From assembly GCA_025357055.1 (NCBI GenBank), contig JANXPZ010000125.1, positions 800 to 64,799 on the forward strand: a DNA stretch of 64,000 bases, in the 5' to 3' direction. A program made the position numbers and the translations under genes. Position 1 is the first letter of the stretch. Every line of letters starts with the position of its first letter. Under the pieces are notes generated by a model. It saw nothing but the letters and a program-made list of their open reading frames with translations, was not told where the DNA came from and did not search any database. Shown one piece after another: positions 2,634 to 39,124 of this stretch. This DNA comes from Candidatus Eiseniibacteriota bacterium. Lineage in GTDB: Bacteria; Eisenbacteria; RBG-16-71-46.

Positions 2634-3457
2634 ATGCCCGCCATGAACACCCGCCTCGCCCTGCTCGGCGTGATGATCGCCGCGCTCCCGCTCGCGGTGG
2701 ATCTCCCGGTCTCGCGTGATTCCTCGCGCACCGGTCCGCTGCAGGTGGAGGTCGCCGGCGGTGGCGGCCAGTTCGCCATCGTGAACCGTGGCTGCGATGG
2801 GCGGGTGCTCCAGGTCACGCGCAACCAGCTGCGTTCCGGCGCGCTCGTGGTCGAGCATCGGCTCCCGGAGGGCTTCGTCGTCGTCGTGCGTGCGGGCGCG
2901 TGCAGACGACGCTGCACCCGATCACGCAGGTCTATGTCGGCGCTCCGGGCCAGCCCTACCGCGACTCGACGCGCACCATCTGGTACTCGAATCGCTACGT
3001 GAACCCGTACGTAGGCTACGAGGGACGCCGGGTGGGCGTGGGCGTCGGCGTGATGAAGGCCGATCGTCCGTTCGATGCCGACCATTCGTGGACCGGCATC
3101 GAGGACCCCCTCCAGGGGGTGCAGGCCGCGAATTCCTTCCATGAGGTGCTCCCCACCGGGCACGTGCGCCTGAGTGGCGAGCGGCACCGCCTGACGCTGC
3201 GCTGGATGGAGGACGTGCCGCTGGAGTCGGAGGGCCACTTCAGCGCGGACCTGGGGTTCCGGTCGAGCCGTCAACTCGAAACCGGCGTGTTCGTGGGTCT
3301 CGCCGGGCCCTACGATGGCGTCATGTTCGGGCTGCGCGGGCGCGTCTGGTTCACGCCGGCGGCCGCGTTGCAGATCAAGGCCTCCGTGTCGAGTGGGGAA
3401 GGCGGGGAGTACGGCGTCTACGGCAGCGTCATCGCGAGGTTGCCGGGCGTGCACTGA
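2634..3457 (+). pseudogene. Secreted hypothetical protein, probably frameshifted (two ORFs 2634..3002 and 2900..3457)
   Basis: Frame 0 gives a signal peptide (MNTRLALLGVMIAALPLAV) and protein-like sequence up to ...FVVVVRAGA, then degenerates into an R-rich tail; frame 2 becomes protein-like from about 2900 (QTTLHPITQVYVGAPGQPYRD...); this is consistent with a -1/+2 frameshift near 2895-2900. Confidence 0.4.
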
Positions 3458-26820: not shown

Positions 26821-27582
26821 CTAGAGCAGCTCCTTCAGCCGCGCGTGACCCGAGCGGCTCACGGGGATCTGCTTGCCATCCTGGAGCACGGCCACGTAAC
26901 TGTCCTTCGCATACAACTCGAGGCGCGCGAGCCGCTCGATGTTGAGCACGCAGGAGCGGTGGATCCGCACGAAGCGCGCGGGGTCGAGCCCGGCCGCGAC
27001 CTCGGCCAGGGGTTGCGGCTTGAGGTGGGTCCTGCCTCCGGCGCGGATGCCGACGTAGTCGTCCTGGGCCTCGATCCAGTCCACCTGGCCCACCGGGATG
27101 ACGTGCACGTTCGGACCGTCCTTGACGAGCAGGCGCTCGACGTACCGCCCGGGCGGGCGCGCCGCCGCGGCGAGCGTGGCGGGCGAAGGCGCGGGGGCGG
27201 CGACCGCGGCGCCGAGCCGCGCGCGGGCCTGCGCGAGCGCCTCGCCCAGCCGCTCGCGGGTGACGGGCTTCAGCACGTAGTCCACCGCGTGCACCTCGAA
27301 GGCCTTGAGCGCGTACTCGTCGTACGCGGTCACGAACACGACGGCGGGCGGCCGCTCGAGCAGGTCCAGCACCTCGAAGCCGTCGAGCTTGGGCATCTGG
27401 ATGTCCAGGAAGACGACGTCGGGGGCCCGCTCGCCGATGACCTTCACCGCGTCGAACCCGTTCGCGCATTCGCCCACGATCTCGATGCCGGAGTGCGCGG
27501 CGAGGTATTCGCGCAGCAAGCCGCGCGCGGGGGCCTCGTCGTCCACGATCACGACCCGCAGGGCGCCCGGATCAGGCGGCAT
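26821..27582 (-). CDS. LytTR-family response regulator (receiver + LytTR DNA-binding domain)
   Basis: ...VVIVDDE...DVVFLDIQMPKLDGFEV... receiver domain; C-terminal ...FVRIHRSCVLNIERL... LytTR motif. Confidence 0.85.
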   Translation of the reverse strand: MPPDPGALRVVIVDDEAPARGLLREYLAAHSGIEIVGECANGFDAVKVIGERAPDVVFLDIQMPKLDGFEVLDLLERPPAVVFVTAYDEYALKAFEVHAVDYVLKPVTRERLGEALAQARARLGAAVAAPAPSPATLAAAARPPGRYVERLLVKDGPNVHVIPVGQVDWIEAQDDYVGIRAGGRTHLKPQPLAEVAAGLDPARFVRIHRSCVLNIERLARLELYAKDSYVAVLQDGKQIPVSRSGHARLKELL

Positions 27583-28690
27583 GGTCTCCTCCCGTGCTGA
27601 CCGCCGGGGTCACGGATGGCCCCGGTCTCGTCCCTTCCACCGCGGGCAGGCTCAGCACCGCGCGGAAGCGCTCCGGCTCCTCGAAGACGTCGAGATGCGC
27701 CCGCCGCGGATCGAGCGCCGCGAGCCGCTGACGCACGTTCTCGAGCCCCAGGCCCACCCCGCGGCGGGGCGGGGCCGCGGAGTCCCGGGGATTCTCGACG
27801 CCGACCTCGAGCGTGTCACCCCTGCGGCGGGCCTCGATGAGCAGGGTGCCGCCTTCCACGCGGTCCGCCACGCCGTGCTTCACGGCGTTCTCGATGAGCG
27901 GCTGGATGAGCAGCGGGGGCACGAGACAGCCCAGCGTCCCGGGCTCGATCCTCCGTTCCACCAGGAGACGCGGCCCGAAACGCACCTGCTCGACCGCAAG
28001 GTAGCGTCCGGCCAGTGCCAGCTCCTCCTCGAGCGAGACGCGCTCGCGCCCGCCCAGGGAGAGGCTCGTGCGGAGGAAGTCGCCGAGCAATCCGCACATG
28101 TCGCGGGCGCCCTCGGGATCGGACCCGGCCAGGGCGCTGATCGAGTTGAGGCTGTTGAAGAGGAAGTGCGGGTTCAGCTGCGCCCGCAGGGCCCGCAACT
28201 CCGCCTCGCGCGCCGCGACCTGCGTCTGGAGCAGGCGGCGTTCGGCCTCGCGCGCGTTCTCGAAGGCGAGCACGAAGTAGTGCCCGACCAGCGACTGCCC
28301 GTAGAGCACGAGGCCCGCGACCCAGAGCAGCGTGAGGTCGCCCGCGAGGCCGTCGGGCCCCGGGCCGAGGTGGAAGCGCTTCGTGAGGAAGACATCCCAC
28401 ACGGCGCCGATCATGACCCAGGCGAGGCTCGCCTGGACCGCGGCGCCGGCCAGTCCCATGAACAGGCGCAGCGGGGGCGTGCGCTCGAGCGGGTGCGCGC
28501 GGCACACCCACCAGGCCGACAGGCACACGAACGCGTAGACCAGCGTGAGCGGCGCGGTGAACGCCAGCGCGGCCCCCGCGCTCGTCCGGGCGCCCAGCCC
28601 GCCGAGCACCGCGGTGAGCAGCGCGCAGATGCCCGCCCATCCGAGCAGGTAGAGGAGGATGCGCAGCCGGCCGCGGAGCAGGGGGTGCAT
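27572..28690 (-). CDS. LytS-type sensor histidine kinase (His_kinase 5TM-type)
   Basis: N-terminal TM helices; ...LRAQLNPHFLFNSLNSISAL... (PF06580 signature); HATPase_c region. Confidence 0.8.
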   Translation of the reverse strand: MHPLLRGRLRILLYLLGWAGICALLTAVLGGLGARTSAGAALAFTAPLTLVYAFVCLSAWWVCRAHPLERTPPLRLFMGLAGAAVQASLAWVMIGAVWDVFLTKRFHLGPGPDGLAGDLTLLWVAGLVLYGQSLVGHYFVLAFENAREAERRLLQTQVAAREAELRALRAQLNPHFLFNSLNSISALAGSDPEGARDMCGLLGDFLRTSLSLGGRERVSLEEELALAGRYLAVEQVRFGPRLLVERRIEPGTLGCLVPPLLIQPLIENAVKHGVADRVEGGTLLIEARRRGDTLEVGVENPRDSAAPPRRGVGLGLENVRQRLAALDPRRAHLDVFEEPERFRAVLSLPAVEGTRPGPSVTPAVSTGGDHAA

Positions 28691-28693
28691 GGG

Positions 28694-29407
28694 TCAGTTC
28701 TTGATCTCGACGCCGCCCATCAGGACGACGCCCTTCACGACGAGGTGGCCGCGGGTCTCGCCGGCGGGCGCGCGGGTGGCGTCCTCGATCCCGGCCATGA
28801 GCGGCAGCGCCTCGACGGTCACCTGCCAGTCCGCGGGCACGAACAGTTCCACGCCGCCCCACACCACCGTCACGTCGACGACCGCGCGGCCGCCGGGCAT
28901 CTTCGCCTGGCGCAGGTCGATCTCGGCGCCACCCATGATGGCGGTGGCGTCGCCGCCGCGGAAATCGAGGGACCCGACCTTGCGCTCGATGCCGGACCAC
29001 ATCACGAAAGTGCTGAACGTGGAATCGGTCTCCGCACCGGGCACGCCGGGTGCGACGGGTGCGTCGGCGCCGCGCGCGCGGCGCATCGCGCCGGCCACCA
29101 TCGAGCCGCCGACCACGACCAGCAGCACCGGCCAGAAGTCCCAGGGGTCGACCTGGATGAGATCGAACTCGTGCAGGAGCAGCAGGGCGCCCGCGAGGGT
29201 GAAGATGATGCCGGGCATCGTGCTCTGGCGGCAGTTGAGCCCGGTGAGCCGGCTCAGGCCGTACACCAGGAGCATGGCGGGCCACCAGCGCAGGATCTCA
29301 TCCGCCTGGAGCAGGCCCAGGTTGTCGAGCGTGAAGAGCACGCCGAGCGCGATGACGACGAACCCGAAGATGAGCCGCCCCGTGAGCGGGTAGCGGTGCT
29401 CAGGCAT
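28694..29407 (-). CDS. LiaF-like membrane protein (N-terminal TM segment + C-terminal DUF2154-like beta domain)
   Basis: TM N-terminus, then repetitive ...GGVEL.. beta-rich C-terminus (VVDVTVVWGGVELFVP..., VVKGVVLMGGVEIKN), resembling LiaF/YvqF cell-envelope stress modules. Confidence 0.5.
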   Translation of the reverse strand: MPEHRYPLTGRLIFGFVVIALGVLFTLDNLGLLQADEILRWWPAMLLVYGLSRLTGLNCRQSTMPGIIFTLAGALLLLHEFDLIQVDPWDFWPVLLVVVGGSMVAGAMRRARGADAPVAPGVPGAETDSTFSTFVMWSGIERKVGSLDFRGGDATAIMGGAEIDLRQAKMPGGRAVVDVTVVWGGVELFVPADWQVTVEALPLMAGIEDATRAPAGETRGHLVVKGVVLMGGVEIKN

Positions 29408-29690
29408 GACGCGCCCTCCTTTCCAGCCGTGCCCCGGATCGCAGCGCCAGCGCGACCAGGAGCAGCGCGGTCGCCGACGCGGCCAGCAGCGCGGGCCCGC
29501 CGGCGCGGCCCAGCAGCAGGGCGGCGCGCGCCAGAGCCCGCAGCACGACGAAGGTCTCCGGGAAACGGCCGATGAATCCGTTCACGAGCAGCACGAGGTT
29601 GACGGTCGCGAGCCACGCCAGCGCGGTGGCGAGCACGGCCGTCACCGCGATCCACAGTTGACGCTCGCGCAACCTGCCACGGTCAGTCAA
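29400..29690 (-). CDS. Small hydrophobic membrane protein
   Basis: 96 aa, three hydrophobic helices, overlaps its neighbours by a few nt (operon). Confidence 0.4.
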   Translation of the reverse strand: MTDRGRLRERQLWIAVTAVLATALAWLATVNLVLLVNGFIGRFPETFVVLRALARAALLLGRAGGPALLAASATALLLVALALRSGARLERRARHA

Positions 29691-30045
29691 GGCGCACCTC
29701 CGGGGTGCGGCGGCGGCGCTCCTCGCCCGTCAACGCCTTGACCACGATGCCCGCTCCCACCGCCACCAGCACGAGCGACCAGGAGTTGCCGTAGGTGAGG
29801 CCCCTCCAGCCGGACGTGACCGCGAGGAACCACGCGCCCAGCAGGATCATGGTCAGGGCCGAGCCCACGCGGCGCTCGATCAGGTGGGTGATGCCGATCA
29901 CGATCAGGATGAGGGGCCACCAATCCCCCATGCCGGCGATGCCCCAGATCCCGGAGCGCTCGACCAGGAACAGGATGCCGAGCGCGATGAGGAAGATGCC
30001 CCAGACCACCGTCTTCATGTTGCGGATGCCTTCGTCCTGCGTCAT
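29683..30045 (-). CDS. Small 4-TM membrane protein (LiaI/LiaF-TM-like)
   Basis: 120 aa; hydrophobic helices; first gene of the minus-strand operon ending with the LytS/LytTR pair. Confidence 0.5.
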   Translation of the reverse strand: MTQDEGIRNMKTVVWGIFLIALGILFLVERSGIWGIAGMGDWWPLILIVIGITHLIERRVGSALTMILLGAWFLAVTSGWRGLTYGNSWSLVLVAVGAGIVVKALTGEERRRRTPEVRLD

Positions 30046-30124
30046 CTCGGACCTCCTTCCGCCCGCCTTCGGGCTTCACCGGTAATCTACGGAAGAGACC
30101 CGGCCCGGGCATGGACTTTTCGGC

Positions 30125-30198
30125 GAGTGGCGGTCTGGCGACGGTGAGTGGCGGTGGGGCGACAACGAGTGCCGTGCGCGGGCGACCGTGAGTGGCGC
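30125..30198 (-). promoter_or_regulatory. Array of four imperfect direct repeats (GAGTGGCGG-like 9-mers) at 21-23 bp spacing upstream of the LytTR operon; candidate LytTR-regulator binding sites/promoter
   Basis: gagtggcgg (30125), gagtggcgg (30146), gagtgccgt (30167), gagtggcgc (30190); located 80-150 nt upstream of the 30045 start; LytTR regulators classically bind 9-bp direct repeats with about 21 bp periodicity. Confidence 0.35.
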
Positions 30199-30546
30199 AC
30201 GCGGGCGGTCCTTGCCTCCGCGTTGAAGAGCCCGCTTTGTGCCCACCTTGCGGGCGCTGACCTTCCCATGCCCACGCCCGGGCTGCTACCAGCGGATAAG
30301 CGCCGTTCGGTGGCATCATCCATCGAATGGAGTGAACTCACAGCACGGTCGCGGGTAGTAGACATCGGGTGGCAGGGTTTCGTGGCACCGCTCTTGCGGT
30401 CACGGAGCGATCCTCACGAAACGGCGATAACGCGCAGTCCCGGATCCACGACCCCCCGCATTTCGGCCGCGAGGAGTCGCAATTTGCAACCTGCAGACCC
30501 GGCCCACACCCCGAAGGATGGCAGGACCGTCGCGGTCGTCGCCGAT

Positions 30547-31401
30547 CGCGTGGTTCTGGCGTGCCTGCTGGCGCTCCCCCTCGCGATCACCCTGCGCTAC
30601 CTGCCCTACTACGCGCTGGGGGTCTCCGGCCGGGCGCGTCACACGCTGCACTCCCTGCTGGGCCCCTCCGGGCCGATCGGGATCTCCTTCGGGATCGCGG
30701 GCGCCGCGCTCTTCCTCTTCATGTGGTTCTACCCGCTGCGCAAGCGGTGGACCGCGCTCCGCCGGCTGGGGAATCCGGGCATCTGGCTCCAGGTGCACAT
30801 CCTCGCGGGCCTCGCGCTGCCGCTCGCCGTGGCCGTGCACTCGGGCTGGCGCTTCGCCGGGATCATCGGGCTCGGCTACGTCGCGATGACGCTCGTCGTC
30901 CTGAGCGGCGTCGTGGGACGCTACCTCTACAGTCACATCCCCCGCCGGCAGGACGGCGTCGAGCTTTCGCGCGAGGCGGTGGCGAACGAGCGGCGCGCCC
31001 TGCTCACGCGCATCGCCGCCGCCACGGGGCTCGATCCGACCGAGGTGGGGCGCACGCTCCACCCGGGGCCCGAGCGGGGCGCCAGCCGGGGCATCGCGGG
31101 CACCCTCGCCCGCCTGGTCATCGGCGACCTGGCCCGGCGCCGGGCGATCCGCGACCTCACCCGCCTCTGGTCGCGGCCGCGACCGGGGCACCCCGCACCC
31201 GACCCGCGCGCGCTGGCCGAGGCGGTGAGGCTCGCGCGCCGGGAGGTGGCCCTGGGGCAGCAGGTGCGGATGCTGGAGGCCACGCACCGCGTCTTCGCCT
31301 GGTGGCACGTGGCGCACCTGCCGGTGGCGATCACCGCCTTCCTGGCCATCCTCGTCCACGTCGGCGTCGCCGTGCTGGTCGGCGGCGTGATGCCGCGCTG
31401 A
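30547..31401 (+). CDS. His-rich polytopic membrane protein, candidate b-type cytochrome/ferric-reductase-like transmembrane component; start uncertain
   Basis: 5-6 TM helices with conserved His (HTLHSLLG, QVHILAGLALPLAVAVHSGW, WWHVAHLPVAITAFLAILVHVG); upstream part of the track ORF (30148-30540) looks non-coding, and GTG 30547 is one possible start. Confidence 0.45.
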   Translation, partial: RVVLACLLALPLAITLRYLPYYALGVSGRARHTLHSLLGPSGPIGISFGIAGAALFLFMWFYPLRKRWTALRRLGNPGIWLQVHILAGLALPLAVAVHSGWRFAGIIGLGYVAMTLVVLSGVVGRYLYSHIPRRQDGVELSREAVANERRALLTRIAAATGLDPTEVGRTLHPGPERGASRGIAGTLARLVIGDLARRRAIRDLTRLWSRPRPGHPAPDPRALAEAVRLARREVALGQQVRMLEATHRVFAWWHVAHLPVAITAFLAILVHVGVAVLVGGVMPR

Positions 31402-31405
31402 CGCC

Positions 31406-32893
31406 ATGAGCATGCTCCTCACCACGCTCGCCTTCGTCGCGCTGACGGCGCTCATCGCCTGGTGGCACGTGCGCGGCTCGGGCACCGTCGCGTCGGCTCG
31501 CGACCTGAGGCCGTGTCCGCGCTGCCGCACCCGCTTCGAAGCCGGCGCCTCGTTGTGTCCGGGCTGTGGCGTGCCGCGGCAGGCGTACGAGCTGGTGAGT
31601 GCCCCCGTCGTGGGGGCCGCGGCGCCGCTCGAGGCGGGCGTGAAGCCGCACCCCATCGTCCGCACCAACCTGTGCGTGGGCTGCGGCACCTGCGTGGCGG
31701 CCTGCCCCGAGCCCGGGGCGATCCGGCTGCAGGACCACCGCGCGTTCGTGGACCTCGACGTCTGTGTGCGGCACGGGACCTGCGCGGTGGCCTGCCCGAT
31801 GAACGCCATCGTGATGGCGGCGGGCGCGGCGGTGCAGCGCATCGAGGTGCCGGAGCTGGACGCGAACTTCCAGAGCAACGTGCCCGGGCTCTATGTGGTG
31901 GGCGAGTTGGGCGGGCGCGGGCTCATCAAGAACGCGATCAACGAGGGCCGCATCGCCATCGAGCACGTCGCCCGCGTGCTGGCGGCGGGCCGCCCGCTGC
32001 GGATGGGAGACGCCGGACCCGGGGGCGGTGAGCCGGACTCCCCCGGGCCCTACGACGTGCTCGTGGTGGGCTCGGGCCCCGCGGGGATCTCGGCCGCGCT
32101 CGAGGCGAAGCGCCTGGGGCTGCGCTGTGTCGTGATCGAGCAGGGCACGATCTCGGACACGATCCGCAAGTACCCGCGCCGCAAGCTCCTGCTCGCCGAG
32201 CCCTCGCGCGTCCAGCTCTACGGTGGATTGTGGGTGGCCGATGCCTCGAAGGAGGAGCTGCTGTCGGTGTGGGAGACGATCATCGCGCGCGCCGGCCTGC
32301 GCGTGCGGACCGGCGAGCGGGTCGAGTCGCTGGAGAGCGACGGTGTGCTGTTCCGCGTGCGCACCCCGGGGACCGAGTACCAGGCCCGCAAGGTGCTGCT
32401 GGCGATGGGCCGGCGCGGCACTCCGCGGCGGCTGGGCGTGCCGGGCGAGGAGCTGGAGAAGGCCCTCTATGACATCGTCGAGATGGAGGCGTTCGCGGGT
32501 TGCCGCATGCTGGTGGTGGGCGGCGGCGACAGCGCGATCGAATCGGCGCTCGGGCTCGCCAACCAGCCGGACACCTCGGTCACGCTCTCCTACCGCGGCC
32601 AGGAGTTCCCGCGGCTGAAGGAGCGCAACCGCGAGAAGCTCGAGGCCGCGCTCCAGGCCTCCGGCGAAGGCGGCGCGGGCCGCGTGGAACTGCTGCTCGG
32701 CAGCCGCGTGATCGAGATCCGCCCCGGCGTGGTGGCGCTCGACTGCGCGGGCATGCCCCGCCTGCTCCCCAACGACTACGTGGTCGTCCGCATCGGTGGC
32801 GAGCCGCCGTACCCGTTCATCGAGCGTTGCGGCGTGCGGATCGTGACCAAGGAGATCGCGATCGACACCGGTGCGGAAAGGCGGGCCGGGTGA
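31406..32893 (+). CDS. Membrane-anchored 2x[4Fe-4S] ferredoxin-domain + FAD/NAD(P)-binding (thioredoxin-reductase-like) oxidoreductase
   Basis: N-terminal TM helix; Zn-ribbon-like CPRC...CPGC; CVGCGTCVAACP and CVRHGTCAVACP ferredoxin motifs; DVLVVGSGPAGISAALEA (FAD GxGxxG) and MLVVGGGDSAIESALGLA (NAD(P)). Confidence 0.7.
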   Translation: MSMLLTTLAFVALTALIAWWHVRGSGTVASARDLRPCPRCRTRFEAGASLCPGCGVPRQAYELVSAPVVGAAAPLEAGVKPHPIVRTNLCVGCGTCVAACPEPGAIRLQDHRAFVDLDVCVRHGTCAVACPMNAIVMAAGAAVQRIEVPELDANFQSNVPGLYVVGELGGRGLIKNAINEGRIAIEHVARVLAAGRPLRMGDAGPGGGEPDSPGPYDVLVVGSGPAGISAALEAKRLGLRCVVIEQGTISDTIRKYPRRKLLLAEPSRVQLYGGLWVADASKEELLSVWETIIARAGLRVRTGERVESLESDGVLFRVRTPGTEYQARKVLLAMGRRGTPRRLGVPGEELEKALYDIVEMEAFAGCRMLVVGGGDSAIESALGLANQPDTSVTLSYRGQEFPRLKERNREKLEAALQASGEGGAGRVELLLGSRVIEIRPGVVALDCAGMPRLLPNDYVVVRIGGEPPYPFIERCGVRIVTKEIAIDTGAERRAG

Positions 32894-34683
32894 GGGCGGC
32901 GCTCCCCCCCATTCTGATCATGCTCTCGCTCTCCGTCGCCCTTCCCGCCCGCGCGCAACTGTCACCGGGGCCGCTCAGCGAGGCGCACCGCTCGCTCGAG
33001 GGCGTGACCCAGTGCTTCCAGTGCCACGAGAGCGGCGCGGGGGCCGCGGACGCCAAGTGTCTCGCCTGCCACACCGAGATCGGCTGGCTGCGCGCCCGGA
33101 GCCGCGGGCTCCACGGCCCCGGGCAGTCCACGCCCTGCGTGAAGTGCCATCCCGAGCACGCGGGAGTCGCCTTCCAGCTGGTGCGCTGGGACGAGGGGGC
33201 CGCCGAGCGGTTCGACCACCGGCGCGCGGGGTTCGTACTCGAGGGCCGGCACGGGAAGCTCAAGTGCGCCGAGTGCCATCAGCCGCGCTTCCAGAAGTCG
33301 GGCGCCGCCGCGCTCATCCGCAAGCGTGACCGCGCCGCGAGCTGGCTCGGGCTCGAGCGCTCGTGCACCTCGTGCCACGCGGACCCCCACCAGGGCCAGC
33401 TCGGCGCCACCTGCACGGATTGCCACGGGCCACAGGCGTGGAAGCCCGCGACCGGCTTCGACCACGCGAAGACCGCCTACCCGCTCACCGGTCTGCACGC
33501 GAAGCTCGAGTGCGCGAAGTGCCACCTGTCCCCGCGGCTCGAGCCCGTGACCGACGCACAGGGGAAGCTCGTGCCACGCTGGAAGCCGCTCCCCCACGCC
33601 GACTGCGCCTCCTGCCACAAGGACCCGCATGCCGGGCGCTTCCCGGGCGCCTGCGCGAAGTGCCACACGACGGAGGGCTTCCGGGTGCTCGACGCGAAGA
33701 ACTTCGACCACGAGCGCACGCGCTACCCGCTGCGCGGCCGCCACGCCACGGTCGCCTGTGCGAAGTGCCACGATCCGAAACTGGCCCGGGGGCTCAAGCC
33801 CGCCTTCGACCGCTGCGACCGCTGCCATCGCGACGCCCACGCCGGGCTCGCCACGCTGGCCGGCCGGCCCGCCGACTGCGCCGCCTGCCACGCGGTGCAG
33901 GGCTGGAGGCCTTCGACCTACAGCGTGAGCGCGCACCAGTCCGCGGCCTATCCGCTCGAGGGGCGCCACGCCCTGGTGCCCTGCGCGAAGTGTCATCCGC
34001 AGGGGGCGGACTCGCTCGCCGCCAGGCTGGGCAGCGCCCGCGTGCAGCTGCGGCCCGCCCGTGCGCGCTGCCTCGACTGCCACACCGACCCGCACCGCGG
34101 CCGCTTCGAGGCGGGCGGCGCCCGGGCCAAGGCCACGAGCTGCAGGACCTGTCACACGCTGGACGGCTTCCGGCCCACCCTGGTGGACGCCGCCGCGCAC
34201 GCGCGACTGGGCTACCCGCTGAAGGGCGCGCACCGGGCCGTGCCCTGCCAGGGTTGCCACGCCGAATTGAAGGTCGCACCGCCCGCGGCCGGCGCAACGG
34301 TCCCGGCCGGCGCCAGCGGCGGGGGCCCCGCCGCGAGCAGCCCGGGGCGCACGCTCCTCTTCGCCGATGCGGGCTCCGCCTGTGACGGTTGTCACACGTC
34401 TCCGCACGGCGACCAGTTCAAGGGCCGCCGCGCCCGGGTGAAGGGTGGCCCGGCGGGCGATGCCTGTGACGCCTGCCACGGGATCGAGAGCTTCACGCCC
34501 GCGAATCGTTTCGATCACGAGAAGGACTCGGCGTTCCGGCTCTCCGGAGCGCACGCGAAAGTCAGGTGCGAGGGCTGTCACAAGTCCTCGCGGGATGCGC
34601 AGGGCCGGTCGTTCGTGGTCTACAAGCCCACGCCCGCCCGGTGCGAGGACTGCCATGTCCACCGGCCGCAGGGGGCGTCATGA
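32890..34683 (+). CDS. 20-heme c-type cytochrome (repeated CXXCH...H modules)
   Basis: GTG start overlapping the upstream stop (GTGA) gives a signal peptide VRAALPPILIMLSLSVALPARA; 20 CXXCH with recurring F(D)H...YPL.G.H spacing motifs. Confidence 0.75.
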   Translation: MRAALPPILIMLSLSVALPARAQLSPGPLSEAHRSLEGVTQCFQCHESGAGAADAKCLACHTEIGWLRARSRGLHGPGQSTPCVKCHPEHAGVAFQLVRWDEGAAERFDHRRAGFVLEGRHGKLKCAECHQPRFQKSGAAALIRKRDRAASWLGLERSCTSCHADPHQGQLGATCTDCHGPQAWKPATGFDHAKTAYPLTGLHAKLECAKCHLSPRLEPVTDAQGKLVPRWKPLPHADCASCHKDPHAGRFPGACAKCHTTEGFRVLDAKNFDHERTRYPLRGRHATVACAKCHDPKLARGLKPAFDRCDRCHRDAHAGLATLAGRPADCAACHAVQGWRPSTYSVSAHQSAAYPLEGRHALVPCAKCHPQGADSLAARLGSARVQLRPARARCLDCHTDPHRGRFEAGGARAKATSCRTCHTLDGFRPTLVDAAAHARLGYPLKGAHRAVPCQGCHAELKVAPPAAGATVPAGASGGGPAASSPGRTLLFADAGSACDGCHTSPHGDQFKGRRARVKGGPAGDACDACHGIESFTPANRFDHEKDSAFRLSGAHAKVRCEGCHKSSRDAQGRSFVVYKPTPARCEDCHVHRPQGAS

Positions 34684-34723
34684 GGAAGGAACGCACGAGA
34701 TCCATCCAGTCGGAAGGCTGGTC

Positions 34724-36166
34724 ATGAAGCGCCCCGGCCTGCCGCTGCGGATCGGGGGCATGCGCCTTGCGGCGACGCTGCTGACGGTGCTTCCACTCGC
34801 CGCGCTCGGACTGGTCGCCTTCGCGGCCGAGAAGCCCGCCGCGGTGGAGCCCGAGTACCCGCACGGGAACTTCCAGGGCGACTGCTCGGAGTGCCACGGC
34901 GACGAGGGGTGGAAGCCGGCGCGCATCAGCCGGAAGTTCGACCACGCGAAGCGCTCGGGATTCGCCCTGAACGGGGCGCACGCCTCGCTCCAGTGCGCGG
35001 GCTGTCACGGCACGCTCGACTTCAGCCAGCAGCGCAAGGTCTGCGCCTCGTGCCACCAGGACCCGCACCTCGGCGAGTTCGGGCCCGACTGCGCCCGTTG
35101 CCACACCCCGCGCAGCTTCCTCGACCGCGCGGGCATGGTGCGCATGCACCAGTTGACGCGTTTTCCGCTGGCGGGCGCGCACGCGGGGCTGGATTGCGAG
35201 GGCTGCCACCGCCTGACGTCCCAGGGGCAGCTGCGCTTCAGCTCGACCGGGACGGAGTGCTACTCGTGTCACCGGGAGGACTTCGTGGGCACGACGAGCC
35301 CCGCGCACGTCGCCGGCGGCTTTCCGACCGATTGCATGAACTGCCACACGCCGCTGGCCTGGCGGCCCACGCGCTTCGTCCACACGGGCGCCACGGAATG
35401 CTACTCGTGCCACCGGTCCAACTACGAGCGCACGACGGCCCCGGCCCACGTCGCGGCGGGCTTCCCGACCGCCTGCGCGACCTGCCACACGACCCGGAGC
35501 TGGCTGCCCTCGACGTTCGACCACGCCGCCACGCCGTTCGCGCTGACCGGGGCGCACGTCCAGACGCCGTGCGTGAGCTGCCACGGGAGTCCCTGGCAGA
35601 ACACGCTGGCCACCGACTGCTACTCGTGCCACCGGCCGGCCTACGACGCGACGGCCGCCCCGGCGCACGTCACGGGCGGGATCCCGACCACCTGCACGAG
35701 CTGCCATACCACCGTGGCCTGGCAGCCCGCGACCTTCGCCCACAACGCCACGGCGTTCCCGCTGACCGGGGCGCACGTCCAGACGCCGTGCGTGAGCTGC
35801 CACGGGAGTCCCTGGCAGAACACGCTGGCCACCGACTGCTATTCGTGCCACCGCCCGGCCTACGACGCGACCACGGACCCCGCCCATGCCGCCGCGGGAT
35901 TCCCGACCACCTGCGCCACCTGTCACAGCACGAGCGCGTGGACCGGGGCGACGTTCGACCACACCTGGTTCCCGATCACCTCCGGCCGACATTCGGGGCT
36001 CACATGCTCGACCTGCCACGTCGTCCCCACGAGCTATGCCTCGTTCAGCTGCCTGAGCGGCTGTCATTCGCAGGGCGACACGGATGGCCGCCATTCCAAC
36101 GTCTCCGGCTACCGGTACGACAGCGCCTCCTGCTATTCGTGCCACCCACGCGGGTCGGCCGGTTGA
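34724..36166 (+). CDS. 17-heme c-type cytochrome with an internally repeated 73-aa module
   Basis: GGAAGG RBS 9 nt upstream of the ATG; signal/anchor MKRPGLPLRIGGMRLAATLLTVLPLAALGLVAFA; about 17 CXXCH; repeated unit PAHV.GG.PT.C..CHTT..W.P.TF.H.AT.F.LTGAHVQTPCVSCHGSPWQNTLATDCYSCHRPAYDAT. Confidence 0.8.
   Translation: MKRPGLPLRIGGMRLAATLLTVLPLAALGLVAFAAEKPAAVEPEYPHGNFQGDCSECHGDEGWKPARISRKFDHAKRSGFALNGAHASLQCAGCHGTLDFSQQRKVCASCHQDPHLGEFGPDCARCHTPRSFLDRAGMVRMHQLTRFPLAGAHAGLDCEGCHRLTSQGQLRFSSTGTECYSCHREDFVGTTSPAHVAGGFPTDCMNCHTPLAWRPTRFVHTGATECYSCHRSNYERTTAPAHVAAGFPTACATCHTTRSWLPSTFDHAATPFALTGAHVQTPCVSCHGSPWQNTLATDCYSCHRPAYDATAAPAHVTGGIPTTCTSCHTTVAWQPATFAHNATAFPLTGAHVQTPCVSCHGSPWQNTLATDCYSCHRPAYDATTDPAHAAAGFPTTCATCHSTSAWTGATFDHTWFPITSGRHSGLTCSTCHVVPTSYASFSCLSGCHSQGDTDGRHSNVSGYRYDSASCYSCHPRGSAG
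35531..35872 (+). repeat. Tandem 219-bp-period duplication inside the 17-heme cytochrome gene with a homogenised core of about 111 bp (2 mismatches)
   Basis: 35552-35652 and 35761-35871 are near-identical (81 bp identical, then 2 mismatches in 30); the flanking parts of each repeat unit are diverged. Confidence 0.85.
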
Positions 36167-37897: not shown

Positions 37898-39124
37898 CTA
37901 GCGCGCCCGCATCCAGCGGAGGATCTCGGGGAGCGTCGGGTCCTTGCCGTACATCAGCATCCCGACCCTGAAGATCCGCCCGGCGACACCGCGCATCCAC
38001 CAGCCGCCGAGCGCGAGGAGCGCGAGCCCGAGCGCGATCTCCCACGACTGGGCCGCGCCGAGCGCGATGCGCACCGGCAGGAGCATGGGCGAGAACGGCG
38101 GCAGCTGCGACACGGCGACCAGCCAGCCGACCTCGGGATCGCGCAGCATCGGGACCAGGAAGAGGATGGGCATCATCGGGAGCATGAAGAAGTACCCCTG
38201 GAACTTCGCGCTCGACTCGATGCCCTGCATGGTCGCGAGCACGGCGGCGAACATGGCGTTGTAGAAGTAGAGGCCGAGCACCGCGAAGGCGACATCCACC
38301 AGCAGGTTGCCGGCGCTCACCGACAGCGGCAGGCTGAACGCGAACGCCCCGCCCAGGATGAACAGCGATCCGGCCCAGACCAGCGCCATCAGCAGGCCGA
38401 TCAGCGTGAACGCCAGGATCTTCCCGTCCATCCAGGACTCGGCGCGGATGGCGGAGACCACCACCTCGGTGACCCGGGCCTGCTTCTCGCCGCTGATGCC
38501 GATCATGAGATACGAGATGGTCGAGAACAGCACGGCCATCATCAGGACGACCAGGGCGATGCCGACCATGCGTTCGGCGCGCGCGGTCCCCGGGTCACGG
38601 CTCCCGCCGTTCGCCGCGGCGACGCGTTCCCGGAGGCGCAGCGGAGCGTCGAGCCGGGCGAGCGCGGTCGAATCGAGCCCGAGGCCCGCGGCGCGTTGCC
38701 GCCGCGCGGCCGCGCGCAGGGCCGTGCGGGCGTCCTCCAGCCATCCCGGGCGGGAGGAGCGCATCAGCACCGTGGCCCGGCCCGAGTCGGCGAAGTCCGC
38801 GGCGAGCGCCACGGCCCCGGCCACGCGCTTCTCGCGCACCATGCGCTCGAGCCCCTCCAGGTCGCGCACGTCGCCGGGCGGGTCCGTCCAGCGCAGGACC
38901 TTGGTGTCGGGGAGCCGCTCCGGACTCAGTGCTCCGGAGGCCTCCACGCGGACCACCGCGAGCGTGACGGGCTTCCCGGCGCCGAGGAGCAGGGACGGGA
39001 GCCCGCCGAACCCGATCGCGAGCAGGGGTGTGAGCAGGACCGAGGCGATGAAGTCACCGCGGCGCAACACGCGCGCCAGCTCCCAGCGGACCACCGGCAG
39101 CCACTGCAGACGACGCTCAGCCAT
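37898..39124 (-). CDS. ABC-2-type transporter permease
   Basis: 408 aa, one N-terminal TM helix + large loop + 5 C-terminal TM helices, NatB/ABC-2 architecture; overlaps the ATPase gene by 8 nt. Confidence 0.7.
   Translation of the reverse strand: MAERRLQWLPVVRWELARVLRRGDFIASVLLTPLLAIGFGGLPSLLLGAGKPVTLAVVRVEASGALSPERLPDTKVLRWTDPPGDVRDLEGLERMVREKRVAGAVALAADFADSGRATVLMRSSRPGWLEDARTALRAAARRQRAAGLGLDSTALARLDAPLRLRERVAAANGGSRDPGTARAERMVGIALVVLMMAVLFSTISYLMIGISGEKQARVTEVVVSAIRAESWMDGKILAFTLIGLLMALVWAGSLFILGGAFAFSLPLSVSAGNLLVDVAFAVLGLYFYNAMFAAVLATMQGIESSAKFQGYFFMLPMMPILFLVPMLRDPEVGWLVAVSQLPPFSPMLLPVRIALGAAQSWEIALGLALLALGGWWMRGVAGRIFRVGMLMYGKDPTLPEILRWMRAR

What the first reader, a model, noticed from the sequence alone, without database searches (positions are those of the whole stretch)
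30125..30198. Four 9-bp direct repeats at about 21-bp spacing upstream of the LytTR two-component operon
GAGTGGCGG-like elements recur at 30125, 30146, 30167 and 30190, spaced 21, 21 and 23 bp apart, 80-150 bp upstream of the first gene (30045, minus strand). That gene heads an operon that ends with a LytS-type kinase and LytTR regulator. LytTR regulators (AgrA/AlgR/ComE-type) are known to bind 9-bp direct repeats separated by 12-13 bp, so this looks like an autoregulatory operator. It would be a directly testable cis-element for an uncharacterised envelope-stress circuit.
Basis: partly seen in the sequence, partly recalled or inferred. Interest (0 to 1): 0.5.

Follow-up and report, generated by a model that had tools for sequence, protein, structure and literature searches.

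The report
Conserved LytTR operator upstream of own operon
The repeats are real, and the two nearest the promoter form a strictly conserved binding-site pair, almost certainly for the LytTR response regulator encoded in the same operon; this is an ordinary kind of self-activating switch, but one that belongs to an uncharacterised LiaF-linked sensor system shared by three bacterial phyla.

Summary
As a tandem repeat they are only weakly above chance, and the 9-mer alone is not enriched in the window. Comparison with other genomes settles the question. In every orthologous promoter with enough upstream sequence, the two promoter-proximal units are conserved. They form a pair of 13-nt half-sites, CCGCCRYTCRCCG on the operon strand, exactly 21 bp apart. 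The proximal half-site always ends 31 nt before a TAnnnT -10 box, and no -35 box is recognisable. The same pair with the same geometry precedes homologous LiaF-TM / LiaF-like / LytS-type kinase / REC-LytTR operons in Acidobacteriota and in cultured Oxalobacteraceae (Janthinobacterium, Duganella, Massilia). The half-site core and its period match the repeats upstream of E. coli btsT, and BtsR is the closest curated relative of this regulator. The two distal units (30163-30175 and 30186-30198) are specific to this lineage and degenerate; they are probably remnants of a tandem duplication. Verdict: a LytTR-type operator that activates its own operon, a new member of a known kind. Binding and activation are inferred, not shown. 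Interest is moderate.

The parts
30121..30133 (-). Promoter-proximal half-site, CCGCCACTCGCCG. Predicted position about -56 to -44.
   Evidence: Weight-matrix score 18.4 of a maximum 20.9, second best of 128,000 positions in the window. It sits in the same alignment columns in all 24 unique orthologous promoters.
30142..30154 (-). Second conserved half-site, CCGCCACTCACCG. Predicted position about -77 to -65.
   Evidence: Weight-matrix score 18.9, best in the window. The 21-bp spacing is conserved in the orthologues and in Acidobacteriota and Oxalobacteraceae loci.
30163..30175 (-). Third unit, ACGGCACTCGTTG.
   Evidence: Weight-matrix score -9.2. It is absent from most orthologues; L089 has a degenerate third copy.
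30186..30198 (-). Fourth unit, GCGCCACTCACGG. A moderate match, 44 bp from the second half-site and so 2 bp out of phase. Lineage-specific.
   Evidence: Weight-matrix score 7.8, within the top 0.018% of window positions. Not conserved in orthologues.
30116..30120 (-). A-rich tract (AAAAG) directly downstream of the proximal half-site.
   Evidence: Conserved as AA(A/T)AG in the Eisenbacteria-type orthologues and as AAxAG-like sequence in Oxalobacteraceae.
30107..30112 (-). Position where a -35 hexamer would lie (ATGCCC), 17 bp from the -10 box. It shows no -35 consensus.
   Evidence: Read directly from the sequence. This position does not resemble TTGACA in any clade. The sigma-70 scan found no complete promoter.
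30084..30089 (-). Predicted -10 box, TAGATT. The transcription start is inferred at about 30077.
   Evidence: The CCGTAGATT block is nearly invariant in the orthologues, and a TAnnnT hexamer occupies the same position in all clades. It always lies 31 nt after the proximal 13-mer.
30046..30076 (-). 5' untranslated region, with a short GC hairpin (GCCCGAAGGCGGGC, 30061-30074) and a Shine-Dalgarno sequence (GGAGG, 30053-30057).
   Evidence: Read from the sequence. A hairpin can be drawn in most orthologues, but RNAalifold gave no consensus structure.
29683..30045 (-). First gene: small LiaI/LiaF-TM membrane protein, 120 aa.
   Evidence: Pfam PF22570 and PF18917.
29400..29690 (-). Second gene: 96-aa hydrophobic protein with no family match.
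   Evidence: No Pfam or NCBIfam hit. A gene of 90-96 aa is called at the same place in L085, L087 and L088.
28694..29407 (-). LiaF-like protein: LiaF-TM region plus LiaF-like C-terminal (Toastrack/DUF2154) domain, 237 aa.
   Evidence: Pfam PF18917, PF22570 and PF09922.
27572..28690 (-). LytS-family histidine kinase (PF06580), 372 aa, lacking the 5TM-LytS and GAF sensor region of BtsS.
   Evidence: Pfam. Only the catalytic core aligns with E. coli BtsS, at 35% identity over 189 aa.
26821..27582 (-). Response regulator with REC and LytTR domains, 253 aa. The predicted phospho-acceptor is Asp60.
   Evidence: Pfam PF00072 and PF04397. The best NCBIfam match is BtsR at 166.6 bits, below the cutoff of 246. 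It is 33% identical to E. coli BtsR, E = 3e-41.

Best explanation
The element is the operator of a LytTR-type, activator-dependent promoter that drives the five-gene operon from 30045 down to 26821 on the minus strand. The functional core is two direct 13-nt half-sites, CCGCCACTC(A/G)CCG, at 30154-30142 and 30133-30121. Their starts are 21 bp apart, which is two helical turns. The proximal site ends 31 nt upstream of a TAGATT -10 box, which puts it about 8 bp upstream of where a -35 box would be, and none is recognisable there. The inferred mechanism is as follows. The LytS-family kinase, probably gated by the co-encoded LiaF-like membrane proteins, phosphorylates the REC-LytTR regulator at Asp60. 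A regulator dimer then occupies the two half-sites in tandem and recruits RNA polymerase to the -35-less promoter. This gives positive autoregulation and raises the level of the small LiaI-like membrane protein encoded first. The two distal units (30163-30175 and 30186-30198) arose by tandem duplication of the whole 21-bp unit in this lineage. At most they are weak auxiliary sites. Shown here: the repeats, the domain content of the operon, and the conservation of sequence, spacing and position. Inferred: which protein binds, the direction of regulation, and the input signal.
For: 1. All orthologous operons with enough upstream sequence carry the same pair at 21 bp. These are 23 non-window unique promoters whose first-gene product is 27-90% identical to the window's. 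An ungapped alignment anchored on the -10 box puts both half-sites in identical columns. Across 44 half-sites, positions 1-5, 8, 9 and 11-13 are 86-100% invariant, while the 8-nt spacer is variable.
2. The upstream neighbour differs between loci. It is a divergent membrane-protein and oxidoreductase cluster in the window and L085, and a co-directional argJ in L087 and L088. The element nevertheless keeps its distance to the operon's -10 box.
3. The test set L007-L084 (872 kb, both strands) was not used to build the matrix. It gives 15 pairs at exactly 21 bp, all on the kinase strand and upstream of the LiaF-type genes, one pair each at 19, 30, 40, 41 and 51 bp, and none on the other strand. 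These include Janthinobacterium lividum, J. kumbetense, Duganella, Massilia, Pseudoduganella and Bryobacterales. The 31-nt distance to a TAnnnT box is also found in J. lividum L024, the one locus of this set where I counted it.
4. J. lividum has the same LiaF-TM / LiaF-like / His_kinase / REC-LytTR module. All 35 loci L005-L039 have a LiaF-like gene directly before the kinase.
5. The regulator is the only DNA-binding protein in the operon.
6. The geometry matches the published LytTR rule: 8-13 bp direct repeats about 12 bp apart (PMC4064291, PMC4847170), lying 4-11 bp upstream of the -35 box in self-activating LytTR operons, with EMSA and reporter proof for HdrR (PMC6193735).
7. The closest curated family is BtsR. 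The E. coli btsT upstream region reads ACCGCTTA-N13-ACCACTCA, the same 21-bp period and a nearly identical core to GCCACTCA here.
8. The pair is unique in the 64-kb window: score 37.3 against a shuffle maximum of 17.8.
Against: No binding, footprint, transcription start or expression data exist for any member of this group, so the binding protein and the direction of regulation are inferred. The -10 box assignment is by consensus and conservation only, and the sigma-70 scan reported no complete promoter. Within the window alone the repeat array is only marginally beyond chance. More distant LiaF-LytS-LytTR loci (L040-L042, kinase 32-33% identical) lack this motif. No second target site was found in the window or in about 1 Mb of flanking DNA from related loci, so the regulon is unknown. 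The assignment of the E. coli btsT repeats to BtsR rests on my recollection of Kraxenberger et al. 2012, a paper I could not open.
Confidence: 0.8

Rival explanations
1. The same regulator binds the same sites but represses the operon (negative autoregulation), or acts as both repressor and activator, instead of simply activating.
For: No expression data exist. NCBI names E. coli BtsR a 'dual regulator'. The extra distal units could support looping or roadblock arrangements.
Against: The sites lie wholly upstream of the -35 position and do not overlap the -10 box or the predicted start. The promoter lacks a -35 consensus in all clades, which is typical of activator dependence. Self-regulating LytTR operons with this geometry are positive-feedback systems (PMC6193735).
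Confidence: 0.08
2. The conserved pair is bound by a different transcription factor encoded elsewhere, not by the LytTR regulator of the operon.
For: No direct binding evidence exists, and GC-rich direct repeats are used by other regulator families.
Against: The element is inherited together with this operon across three phyla, whatever the neighbouring genes. The 21-bp phasing of 8-13 nt direct repeats is the LytTR signature (PMC4064291, PMC4847170). The half-site core resembles that upstream of btsT, the target gene of the closest characterised homologue.
Confidence: 0.07
3. The whole array is a non-functional GC-rich tandem duplication (a slippage product) lying in a long intergenic region.
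For: TRF scores of this size occur in 3 of 40 shuffled windows, and four such rows occur in the real window, mostly in coding DNA. The 9-mer is at chance frequency. The spacers of the window's units are also similar to each other (GTCGCC), which shows recent duplication.
Against: The proximal pair is conserved in sequence, phase and position relative to the -10 box in all orthologues and across phyla, while the spacers and flanks are not. This reading remains plausible only for the two distal units.
Confidence: 0.03
4. The repeats control the divergently transcribed gene cluster (a 305-aa membrane protein from about 30484, then a Fer4/Pyr_redox protein and cytochromes), not the LiaF-LytTR operon.
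For: The repeats lie in a shared 438-bp divergent intergenic region.
Against: In L087 and L088, and in the Oxalobacteraceae and Acidobacteriota loci, that cluster is absent from the upstream side; in L087 and L088 the neighbour is a co-directional argJ. The pair still keeps its 31-nt distance to the -10 box of the LiaF-TM operon.
Confidence: 0.02

Closest known systems
BtsR (YehT) operator in the E. coli btsT (yjiY) promoter
   Same: The regulator is the closest curated relative: NCBIfam BtsR at 166.6 bits, and 33% identity with E = 3e-41. The btsT upstream region reads ACCGCTTA-N13-ACCACTCA, with a further GCCGCTCA 20 bp upstream. That is the same 21-bp period, the same orientation toward the gene, and a core nearly identical to GCCACTCA / GCCGTTCG here.
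   Different: The NCBIfam score is below the BtsR cutoff of 246. The kinase lacks the 5TM-LytS and GAF sensor of BtsS. The target here is the regulator's own operon, encoding LiaF-type membrane proteins, not a CstA-family pyruvate transporter. The half-site is longer and GC-rich, with an invariant CCG tail. That the btsT repeats are BtsR sites is recalled from Kraxenberger et al. 2012, which I did not read here.
Self-activating direct repeats of LytTR Regulatory Systems (HdrRM, BrsRM; PMC6193735)
   Same: Two 9-bp direct repeats separated by 12 bp lie 4-11 bp upstream of the operon's -35 box and give positive feedback. The partner membrane proteins can carry DUF2154, which to my knowledge is the LiaF-like C-terminal domain.
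   Different: Regulators of those systems have no receiver domain, and the systems have no kinase. Here a REC-LytTR regulator is paired with a PF06580 kinase and two or three LiaF-type membrane proteins.
AgrA, ComE, PlnC and VirR type LytTR promoters
   Same: Imperfect direct repeats of 8-13 bp about 12 bp apart, with critical spacing, placed just upstream of a weak or absent -35 box (PMC4064291, PMC4847170).
   Different: Those are AT-rich sites in Firmicutes quorum-sensing and bacteriocin circuits with peptide-sensing kinases. The sequence motifs are unrelated.
AlgR binding site (CCGTTCGTC; PMC4787818)
   Same: Many orthologous half-sites (CCGCCGTTCGCCG) contain CCGTTCGCC, which matches the AlgR 9-mer at 8 of 9 positions. 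JGI annotates the kinase homologues as 'AlgZ'.
   Different: AlgR sites are often single or irregularly spaced, not 12-bp-spaced direct repeats (PMC4064291). No AlgR model appears among the 25 best of the 79 NCBIfam matches that one search lists, so AlgR ranks below BtsR and LytR. The window's own half-sites match the AlgR 9-mer at only 6 of 9 positions.
LiaFSR and the liaI promoter of Bacillus subtilis
   Same: The logic is the same: a LiaF-type membrane protein is encoded with a two-component system, and the self-regulated operon starts with a small LiaI-like membrane protein (LiaF as an inhibitor of LiaRS, PMC7191749).
   Different: LiaS and LiaR are HisKA_3 and NarL/LuxR-type proteins that bind an inverted repeat. 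Here the kinase is PF06580 and the regulator is LytTR with direct repeats. There is no PspA/LiaH gene.

Membership tests
LytTR-type operator (direct-repeat binding site of a LytTR regulator) | Two or more imperfect direct repeats of 8-13 bp | tested here: met
   Two 13-nt half-sites score 18.4 and 18.9 of a maximum 20.9, plus two weaker units.
LytTR-type operator (direct-repeat binding site of a LytTR regulator) | Spacer of 11-13 bp between 9-bp repeats (about 21 bp start to start), with strict spacing | tested here: met
In independent loci 15 pairs fall at exactly 21 bp, against single pairs at five other spacings.
LytTR-type operator (direct-repeat binding site of a LytTR regulator) | Location immediately upstream of the -35 position of the regulated promoter | tested here: met
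   The proximal 13-mer ends 31 nt before the conserved TAnnnT box, about 8 bp upstream of the -35 position. The promoter itself is predicted, not mapped.
LytTR-type operator (direct-repeat binding site of a LytTR regulator) | A LytTR-domain regulator available to bind it | tested here: met
   A REC+LytTR protein is encoded at 26821-27582 in the same operon (PF04397, E = 1.9e-18).
LytTR-type operator (direct-repeat binding site of a LytTR regulator) | Conservation in orthologous promoters | tested here: met
   Met for the proximal pair in all orthologues and across three phyla. Not met for the two distal units.
LytTR-type operator (direct-repeat binding site of a LytTR regulator) | Sequence-specific binding by the regulator, and repeat-dependent transcription | not testable with these tools
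   Requires EMSA or footprinting and reporter assays.
BtsS/BtsR (YehU/YehT) pyruvate-sensing system | Regulator reaches the NCBIfam BtsR equivalog cutoff | tested here: not met
   166.6 bits against a cutoff of 246.
BtsS/BtsR (YehU/YehT) pyruvate-sensing system | Kinase with the LytS 5TM and GAF sensor architecture (about 560 aa) | tested here: not met
   The kinase is 372 aa and only PF06580 is detected. BLASTP aligns only residues 162-349 with the BtsS catalytic core.
BtsS/BtsR (YehU/YehT) pyruvate-sensing system | Target is a CstA-family transporter gene (btsT) | tested here: not met
   The only site found precedes the LiaF-TM operon itself, and no other pair occurs in the window.
LiaFSR three-component system | LiaF-type protein (LiaF-TM plus LiaF-like C-terminal domain) encoded with the two-component system | tested here: met
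   PF18917, PF22570 and PF09922 in the 237-aa protein.
LiaFSR three-component system | LiaS-type (HisKA_3) kinase and NarL/LuxR-type LiaR regulator | tested here: not met
   The kinase is PF06580 and the regulator is LytTR.
LytTR Regulatory System (LRS, HdrRM type) | Stand-alone LytTR regulator without a receiver domain, paired only with a membrane inhibitor and no kinase | tested here: not met
   The regulator has a REC domain (PF00072), and a histidine kinase is encoded next to it.

The most novel reading that the evidence does not exclude
The operator marks a signalling module that, as far as I could find, has not been described. One or two LiaF-type (Toastrack) membrane proteins gate a sensor-less LytS-family kinase and a BtsR-like LytTR regulator. 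The only conserved target is the module's own promoter, and the promoter geometry (13-mer, 8 nt, 13-mer, 31 nt, -10 box) has stayed fixed across Eisenbacteria, Acidobacteriota and Oxalobacteraceae. In effect it is a LiaFSR-like envelope sensor rebuilt on a LytS/LytTR chassis. In the window's lineage the operator has also grown by tandem duplication to three or four phased units, which could change the cooperativity of the switch.
Probability: 0.45. Interest if true: 0.55.

Novelty: new member of a known kind. Interest (0 to 1): 0.4.

Why it matters
It gives a precise, testable cis-element for an uncharacterised two-component system that is widespread in soil and sediment bacteria: two 13-mers, a fixed spacing and a fixed distance to the -10 box. 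The same operator and operon occur in cultured Janthinobacterium, Duganella and Massilia, and in weaker form in Geothrix. The circuit found in an uncultured Eisenbacteria-type genome can therefore be studied in tractable organisms. The motif also supplies a weight matrix for finding the regulon in complete genomes. It is a clean example of a LytTR half-site that stays conserved alongside a BtsR-like DNA-binding domain over very long evolutionary distances. It does not reveal a new regulatory principle.

Tried and rejected
- The four Logan contigs that encode the identical first-gene protein (L001-L004) are 100% identical across the intergenic region, so they say nothing about conservation.
- The genome-contig scan with the kinase alignment returned only distant relatives (52% identity or less). 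These were poor for close footprinting but proved valuable as an independent cross-phylum test.
- The sigma-70 and terminator consensus scan found nothing in 29900-30700. This is consistent with a promoter lacking a -35 box, but it means the promoter is assigned by conservation only.
- An Rfam search of 29600-30900 gave only a sub-threshold microRNA hit, so no RNA element is indicated.
- RNAalifold on the 5' untranslated regions gave no consensus structure, so I make no claim for the hairpin.
- The PDB sequence search with the regulator listed only receiver-domain matches among the 60 best of its 224 hits, and no LytTR-DNA complex close enough to transfer contacts.
- The lone high-scoring half-site at 38604-38616 lies inside an ORF and has no partner. 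About 0.2 such sites are expected by chance, so I rejected it as a target.
- Kraxenberger et al. 2012 (PMC3416263) could not be opened, and two other BtsR papers do not print the motif. I therefore read the repeats directly from the E. coli K-12 btsT upstream sequence.
- Literature searches for a LiaF-LytS-LytTR module in Gram-negative bacteria found only comparative-genomic remarks about Firmicutes.

Full report
**1. The observation**

The sequence shows GAGTGGCGG at 30125 and 30146, GAGTGCCGT at 30167 and GAGTGGCGC at 30190 on the + strand. Start-to-start distances are 21, 21 and 23 bp. Tandem Repeats Finder calls 30121-30197 as a 21-bp period with 3.6 copies and score 73.

A second block, GGCGAC, recurs at 30138, 30159 and 30182. 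The whole 21-bp unit is therefore repeated, spacer included, which points to tandem duplication.

The array lies 80-153 bp upstream of the ATG at 30045 on the minus strand.
- 29683-30045: LiaF-TM protein, 120 aa
- 29400-29690: 96 aa, no family
- 28694-29407: LiaF-like protein, 237 aa (LiaF-TM plus LiaF-like C-terminal domain)
- 27572-28690: PF06580 histidine kinase, 372 aa
- 26821-27582: REC + LytTR regulator, 253 aa

**2. Is it more than chance?**

Within the window alone, only marginally. The 9-mer with up to one mismatch occurs 47 times, against 52.6 expected. The genome is 72% G+C and rich in imperfect tandem repeats: there are 10 TRF rows with score 50 or more. Markov-shuffled windows reach a score of 70 or more 0.175 times per 64 kb, and 3 of 40 reach 73 or more. 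The array alone would therefore not be convincing.

**3. Orthologous promoters**

Homologues of the kinase (60-91% identical) are abundant in metagenomes, and some are labelled Candidatus Eisenbacteria. The window is therefore probably from that candidate phylum.

I retrieved the operon from L085, L087 and L088 through the kinase. I retrieved 25 further loci (L089-L113) through an alignment of the first gene's product. The gene order of the operon is conserved.

The upstream neighbour is not conserved. It is a divergent membrane-protein, Fer4-oxidoreductase and cytochrome cluster in the window and L085, and a co-directional argJ in L087 and L088.

Read in the direction of the operon, every promoter with enough upstream sequence shows the same layout:

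CCGCCAYTC-RCCG - N8 - CCGCCAYTC-GCCG - AA(A/T)AG - N26 - TAGATT (or another TAnnnT)

An ungapped alignment anchored on the -10 box puts both half-sites in identical columns in all 24 unique sequences. This includes two distant Eisenbacteria genomes, L005 and L006.

Across 44 half-sites from the 23 non-window promoters:
- positions 1-5, 8, 9 and 11-13 of CCGCCRYTCRCCG are 86-100% invariant;
- positions 6, 7 and 10 are R, Y and R;
- the 8-nt spacer carries little information.

**4. Scoring the window with an independent matrix**

A weight matrix built without the window ranks 30142-30154 (score 18.9) and 30121-30133 (score 18.4) first and second among 128,000 positions in the window. The phased pair scores 37.3, against a maximum of 17.8 in 100 shuffles, and it is the only such pair in the 64 kb.

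The third unit (30163-30175) scores -9.2. Neither is conserved, although L089 and L005 show that a weak third copy arises sporadically.

So two of the four repeats form the conserved operator. The other two are lineage-specific duplicates in decay.

**5. Conservation across phyla**

The genome-collection loci fetched with the kinase alignment (L005-L084, 52% identity or less), apart from L005 and L006, were not used to build the matrix. All 35 loci with a full-length kinase match have a LiaF-like gene directly upstream of the kinase.

Scanning L007-L084 (872 kb, both strands) gives 15 half-site pairs at exactly 21 bp. All are on the kinase strand, just upstream of the first LiaF-type gene. There is one pair each at 19, 30, 40, 41 and 51 bp, and none on the opposite strand.

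Carriers include:
- Janthinobacterium lividum, J. kumbetense and Janthinobacterium sp.
- Duganella, Massilia and Pseudoduganella
- Bryobacterales and other Acidobacteriota

In J. lividum the proximal 13-mer is again followed by 31 nt and then a TAnnnT box (TATCTT). Pfam confirms its LiaF-TM / LiaF-like / His_kinase / REC-LytTR operon.

More remote modules (L040-L042, kinase 32-33% identical) do not have this motif.

**6. Promoter anatomy and mechanism**

On the minus strand the order is as follows:

| Element | Coordinates |
|---|---|
| Half-site | 30154-30142 |
| 8-nt spacer | 30141-30134 |
| Half-site | 30133-30121 |
| AAAAG | 30120-30116 |
| -35 position (ATGCCC, no consensus in any clade) | 30112-30107 |
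| 17-nt spacer | 30106-30090 |
| TAGATT | 30089-30084 |
| Predicted transcription start | about 30077 |
| GGAGG (Shine-Dalgarno) | 30057-30053 |
| ATG | 30045 |

The half-sites are thus centred near -50 and -71 and lie on the same face of the helix. This is the layout described for LytTR regulators:
- two repeats of 9-11 nt separated by 11-13 nt (PMC4847170);
- sites 8-13 bp long and about 12 bp apart, with critical spacing (PMC4064291);
- in self-regulating LytTR operons, 9-bp repeats with a 12-bp spacer lying 4-11 bp upstream of the -35 box and giving positive feedback, proven by EMSA and reporters for HdrR (PMC6193735).

The regulator is the only DNA-binding protein in the operon. I therefore infer that the phosphorylated regulator (Asp60, aligned with the conserved FLDIQMP aspartate of BtsR) binds as a tandem dimer and activates a promoter that lacks a -35 box.

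The role of the LiaF-like proteins as gatekeepers of the kinase is an analogy with LiaF and LiaRS (PMC7191749). The identity of the stimulus is not supported by any data here.

**7. Comparison with known systems**

The closest curated family of the regulator is BtsR (166.6 bits, below the cutoff of 246). It is 33% identical to E. coli BtsR (E = 3e-41).

Reading the E. coli K-12 btsT upstream region directly gives GCCGCTCA-N12-ACCGCTTA-N13-ACCACTCA on the coding strand. This is the same 21-bp period and orientation, and almost the same core as GCCACTCA / GCCGTTCG here. That these repeats are the BtsR sites is my recollection of Kraxenberger et al. 2012, which I could not open. PMC5552118 states only that BtsR motifs are highly conserved.

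Many orthologous half-sites also contain CCGTTCGCC, which matches the AlgR site CCGTTCGTC (PMC4787818) at 8 of 9 positions.

The system is nevertheless not BtsS/BtsR. The kinase lacks the LytS 5TM and GAF sensor, and only its catalytic core aligns with BtsS. The target is not a CstA-type transporter.

It is not LiaFSR, because the kinase and regulator belong to the wrong families. It is not an LRS, because it has a receiver domain and a kinase.

Comparative-genomic work has noted LytTR genes next to Toastrack/LiaI-LiaF-TM genes in Firmicutes (PMC11237479). My searches found no description of this module in Gram-negative or candidate phyla.

**8. Rival explanations**

- A purely accidental tandem repeat is excluded for the proximal pair by conservation. 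It remains the best reading of the distal pair.
- Control of the divergent gene cluster is contradicted by the loci in which that cluster is replaced by argJ or by other genes.
- Binding by an unrelated factor, or repression instead of activation, cannot be excluded without experiments. Both fit the geometry and the co-inheritance less well.

**9. Verdict**

The element is a new member of a well-known kind of operator. What adds interest is that both the operator and its LiaF-coupled LytS/LytTR operon are conserved across three phyla and occur in cultured bacteria. The circuit is therefore directly testable.

Noticed in passing
window 35390-35931 (within ORF 34445-36166, + strand): A 219-bp tandem repeat (2.5 copies, TRF score 761) lies inside a 573-aa protein with many CXXCH haem-binding motifs. 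This is a multihaem cytochrome c whose 73-aa haem-binding modules have recently duplicated.
   Followed up: partly
window 30061-30074 (minus strand), and the same position in L085-L113: A short GC hairpin (GCCCG-AAGG-CGGGC) lies between the predicted transcription start and the Shine-Dalgarno sequence. Orthologues show different but still self-complementary sequences, such as GGCCGC-AACC-GCGGCC in L087.
   Followed up: partly
window 29451-29525: A 27-bp-period tandem repeat (score 85) lies inside the 96-aa second gene of the operon. It encodes an Ala/Leu/Arg-rich stretch. The gene has no family match but is present, at 90-96 aa, in the Eisenbacteria-type orthologues.
   Followed up: no
window 38604-38616 (+ strand): A lone, near-perfect half-site (CCGCCGTTCGCCG, score 18.2) lies inside the ORF 37898-39124 (minus strand) with no phased partner. 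About 0.2 such sites are expected by chance in 128 kb of this base composition.
   Followed up: yes
L093 about 737-773 and L101 about 679-715: These two metagenome orthologues carry a 30-bp duplication of the Shine-Dalgarno and start-codon region (GGCGGAAGGAGGTCGGTGATGACGCAGGAC occurs twice). This gives two in-frame candidate start codons.
   Followed up: no
window 30484-32893 and L085 1-3260: The divergent neighbour is a cluster conserved between the window and L085: a 305-aa membrane protein with no family match, a 4Fe-4S ferredoxin fused to a pyridine-nucleotide-disulfide oxidoreductase, and then a cytochrome c. About 280 bp of the intergenic region beyond the repeats (30200-30483) is also conserved between the window and L085.
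   Followed up: no
L119 5417-5464 (E. coli K-12 btsT upstream, minus strand): The btsT promoter region has three BtsR-like 8-mers, not two. GCCGCTCA starts 20 bp upstream of ACCGCTTA, which starts 21 bp upstream of ACCACTCA. This parallels the extra upstream units seen in the window.
   Followed up: no
L114-L117, about 3365-3400: Loci whose LiaF-TM protein is only 28% identical to the window's also carry a weaker 21-bp phased pair (TCGCGATTCACCG / CCGCCGTCCACCG) about 135 bp upstream of that gene. The operator type may therefore extend to more distant families.
   Followed up: no
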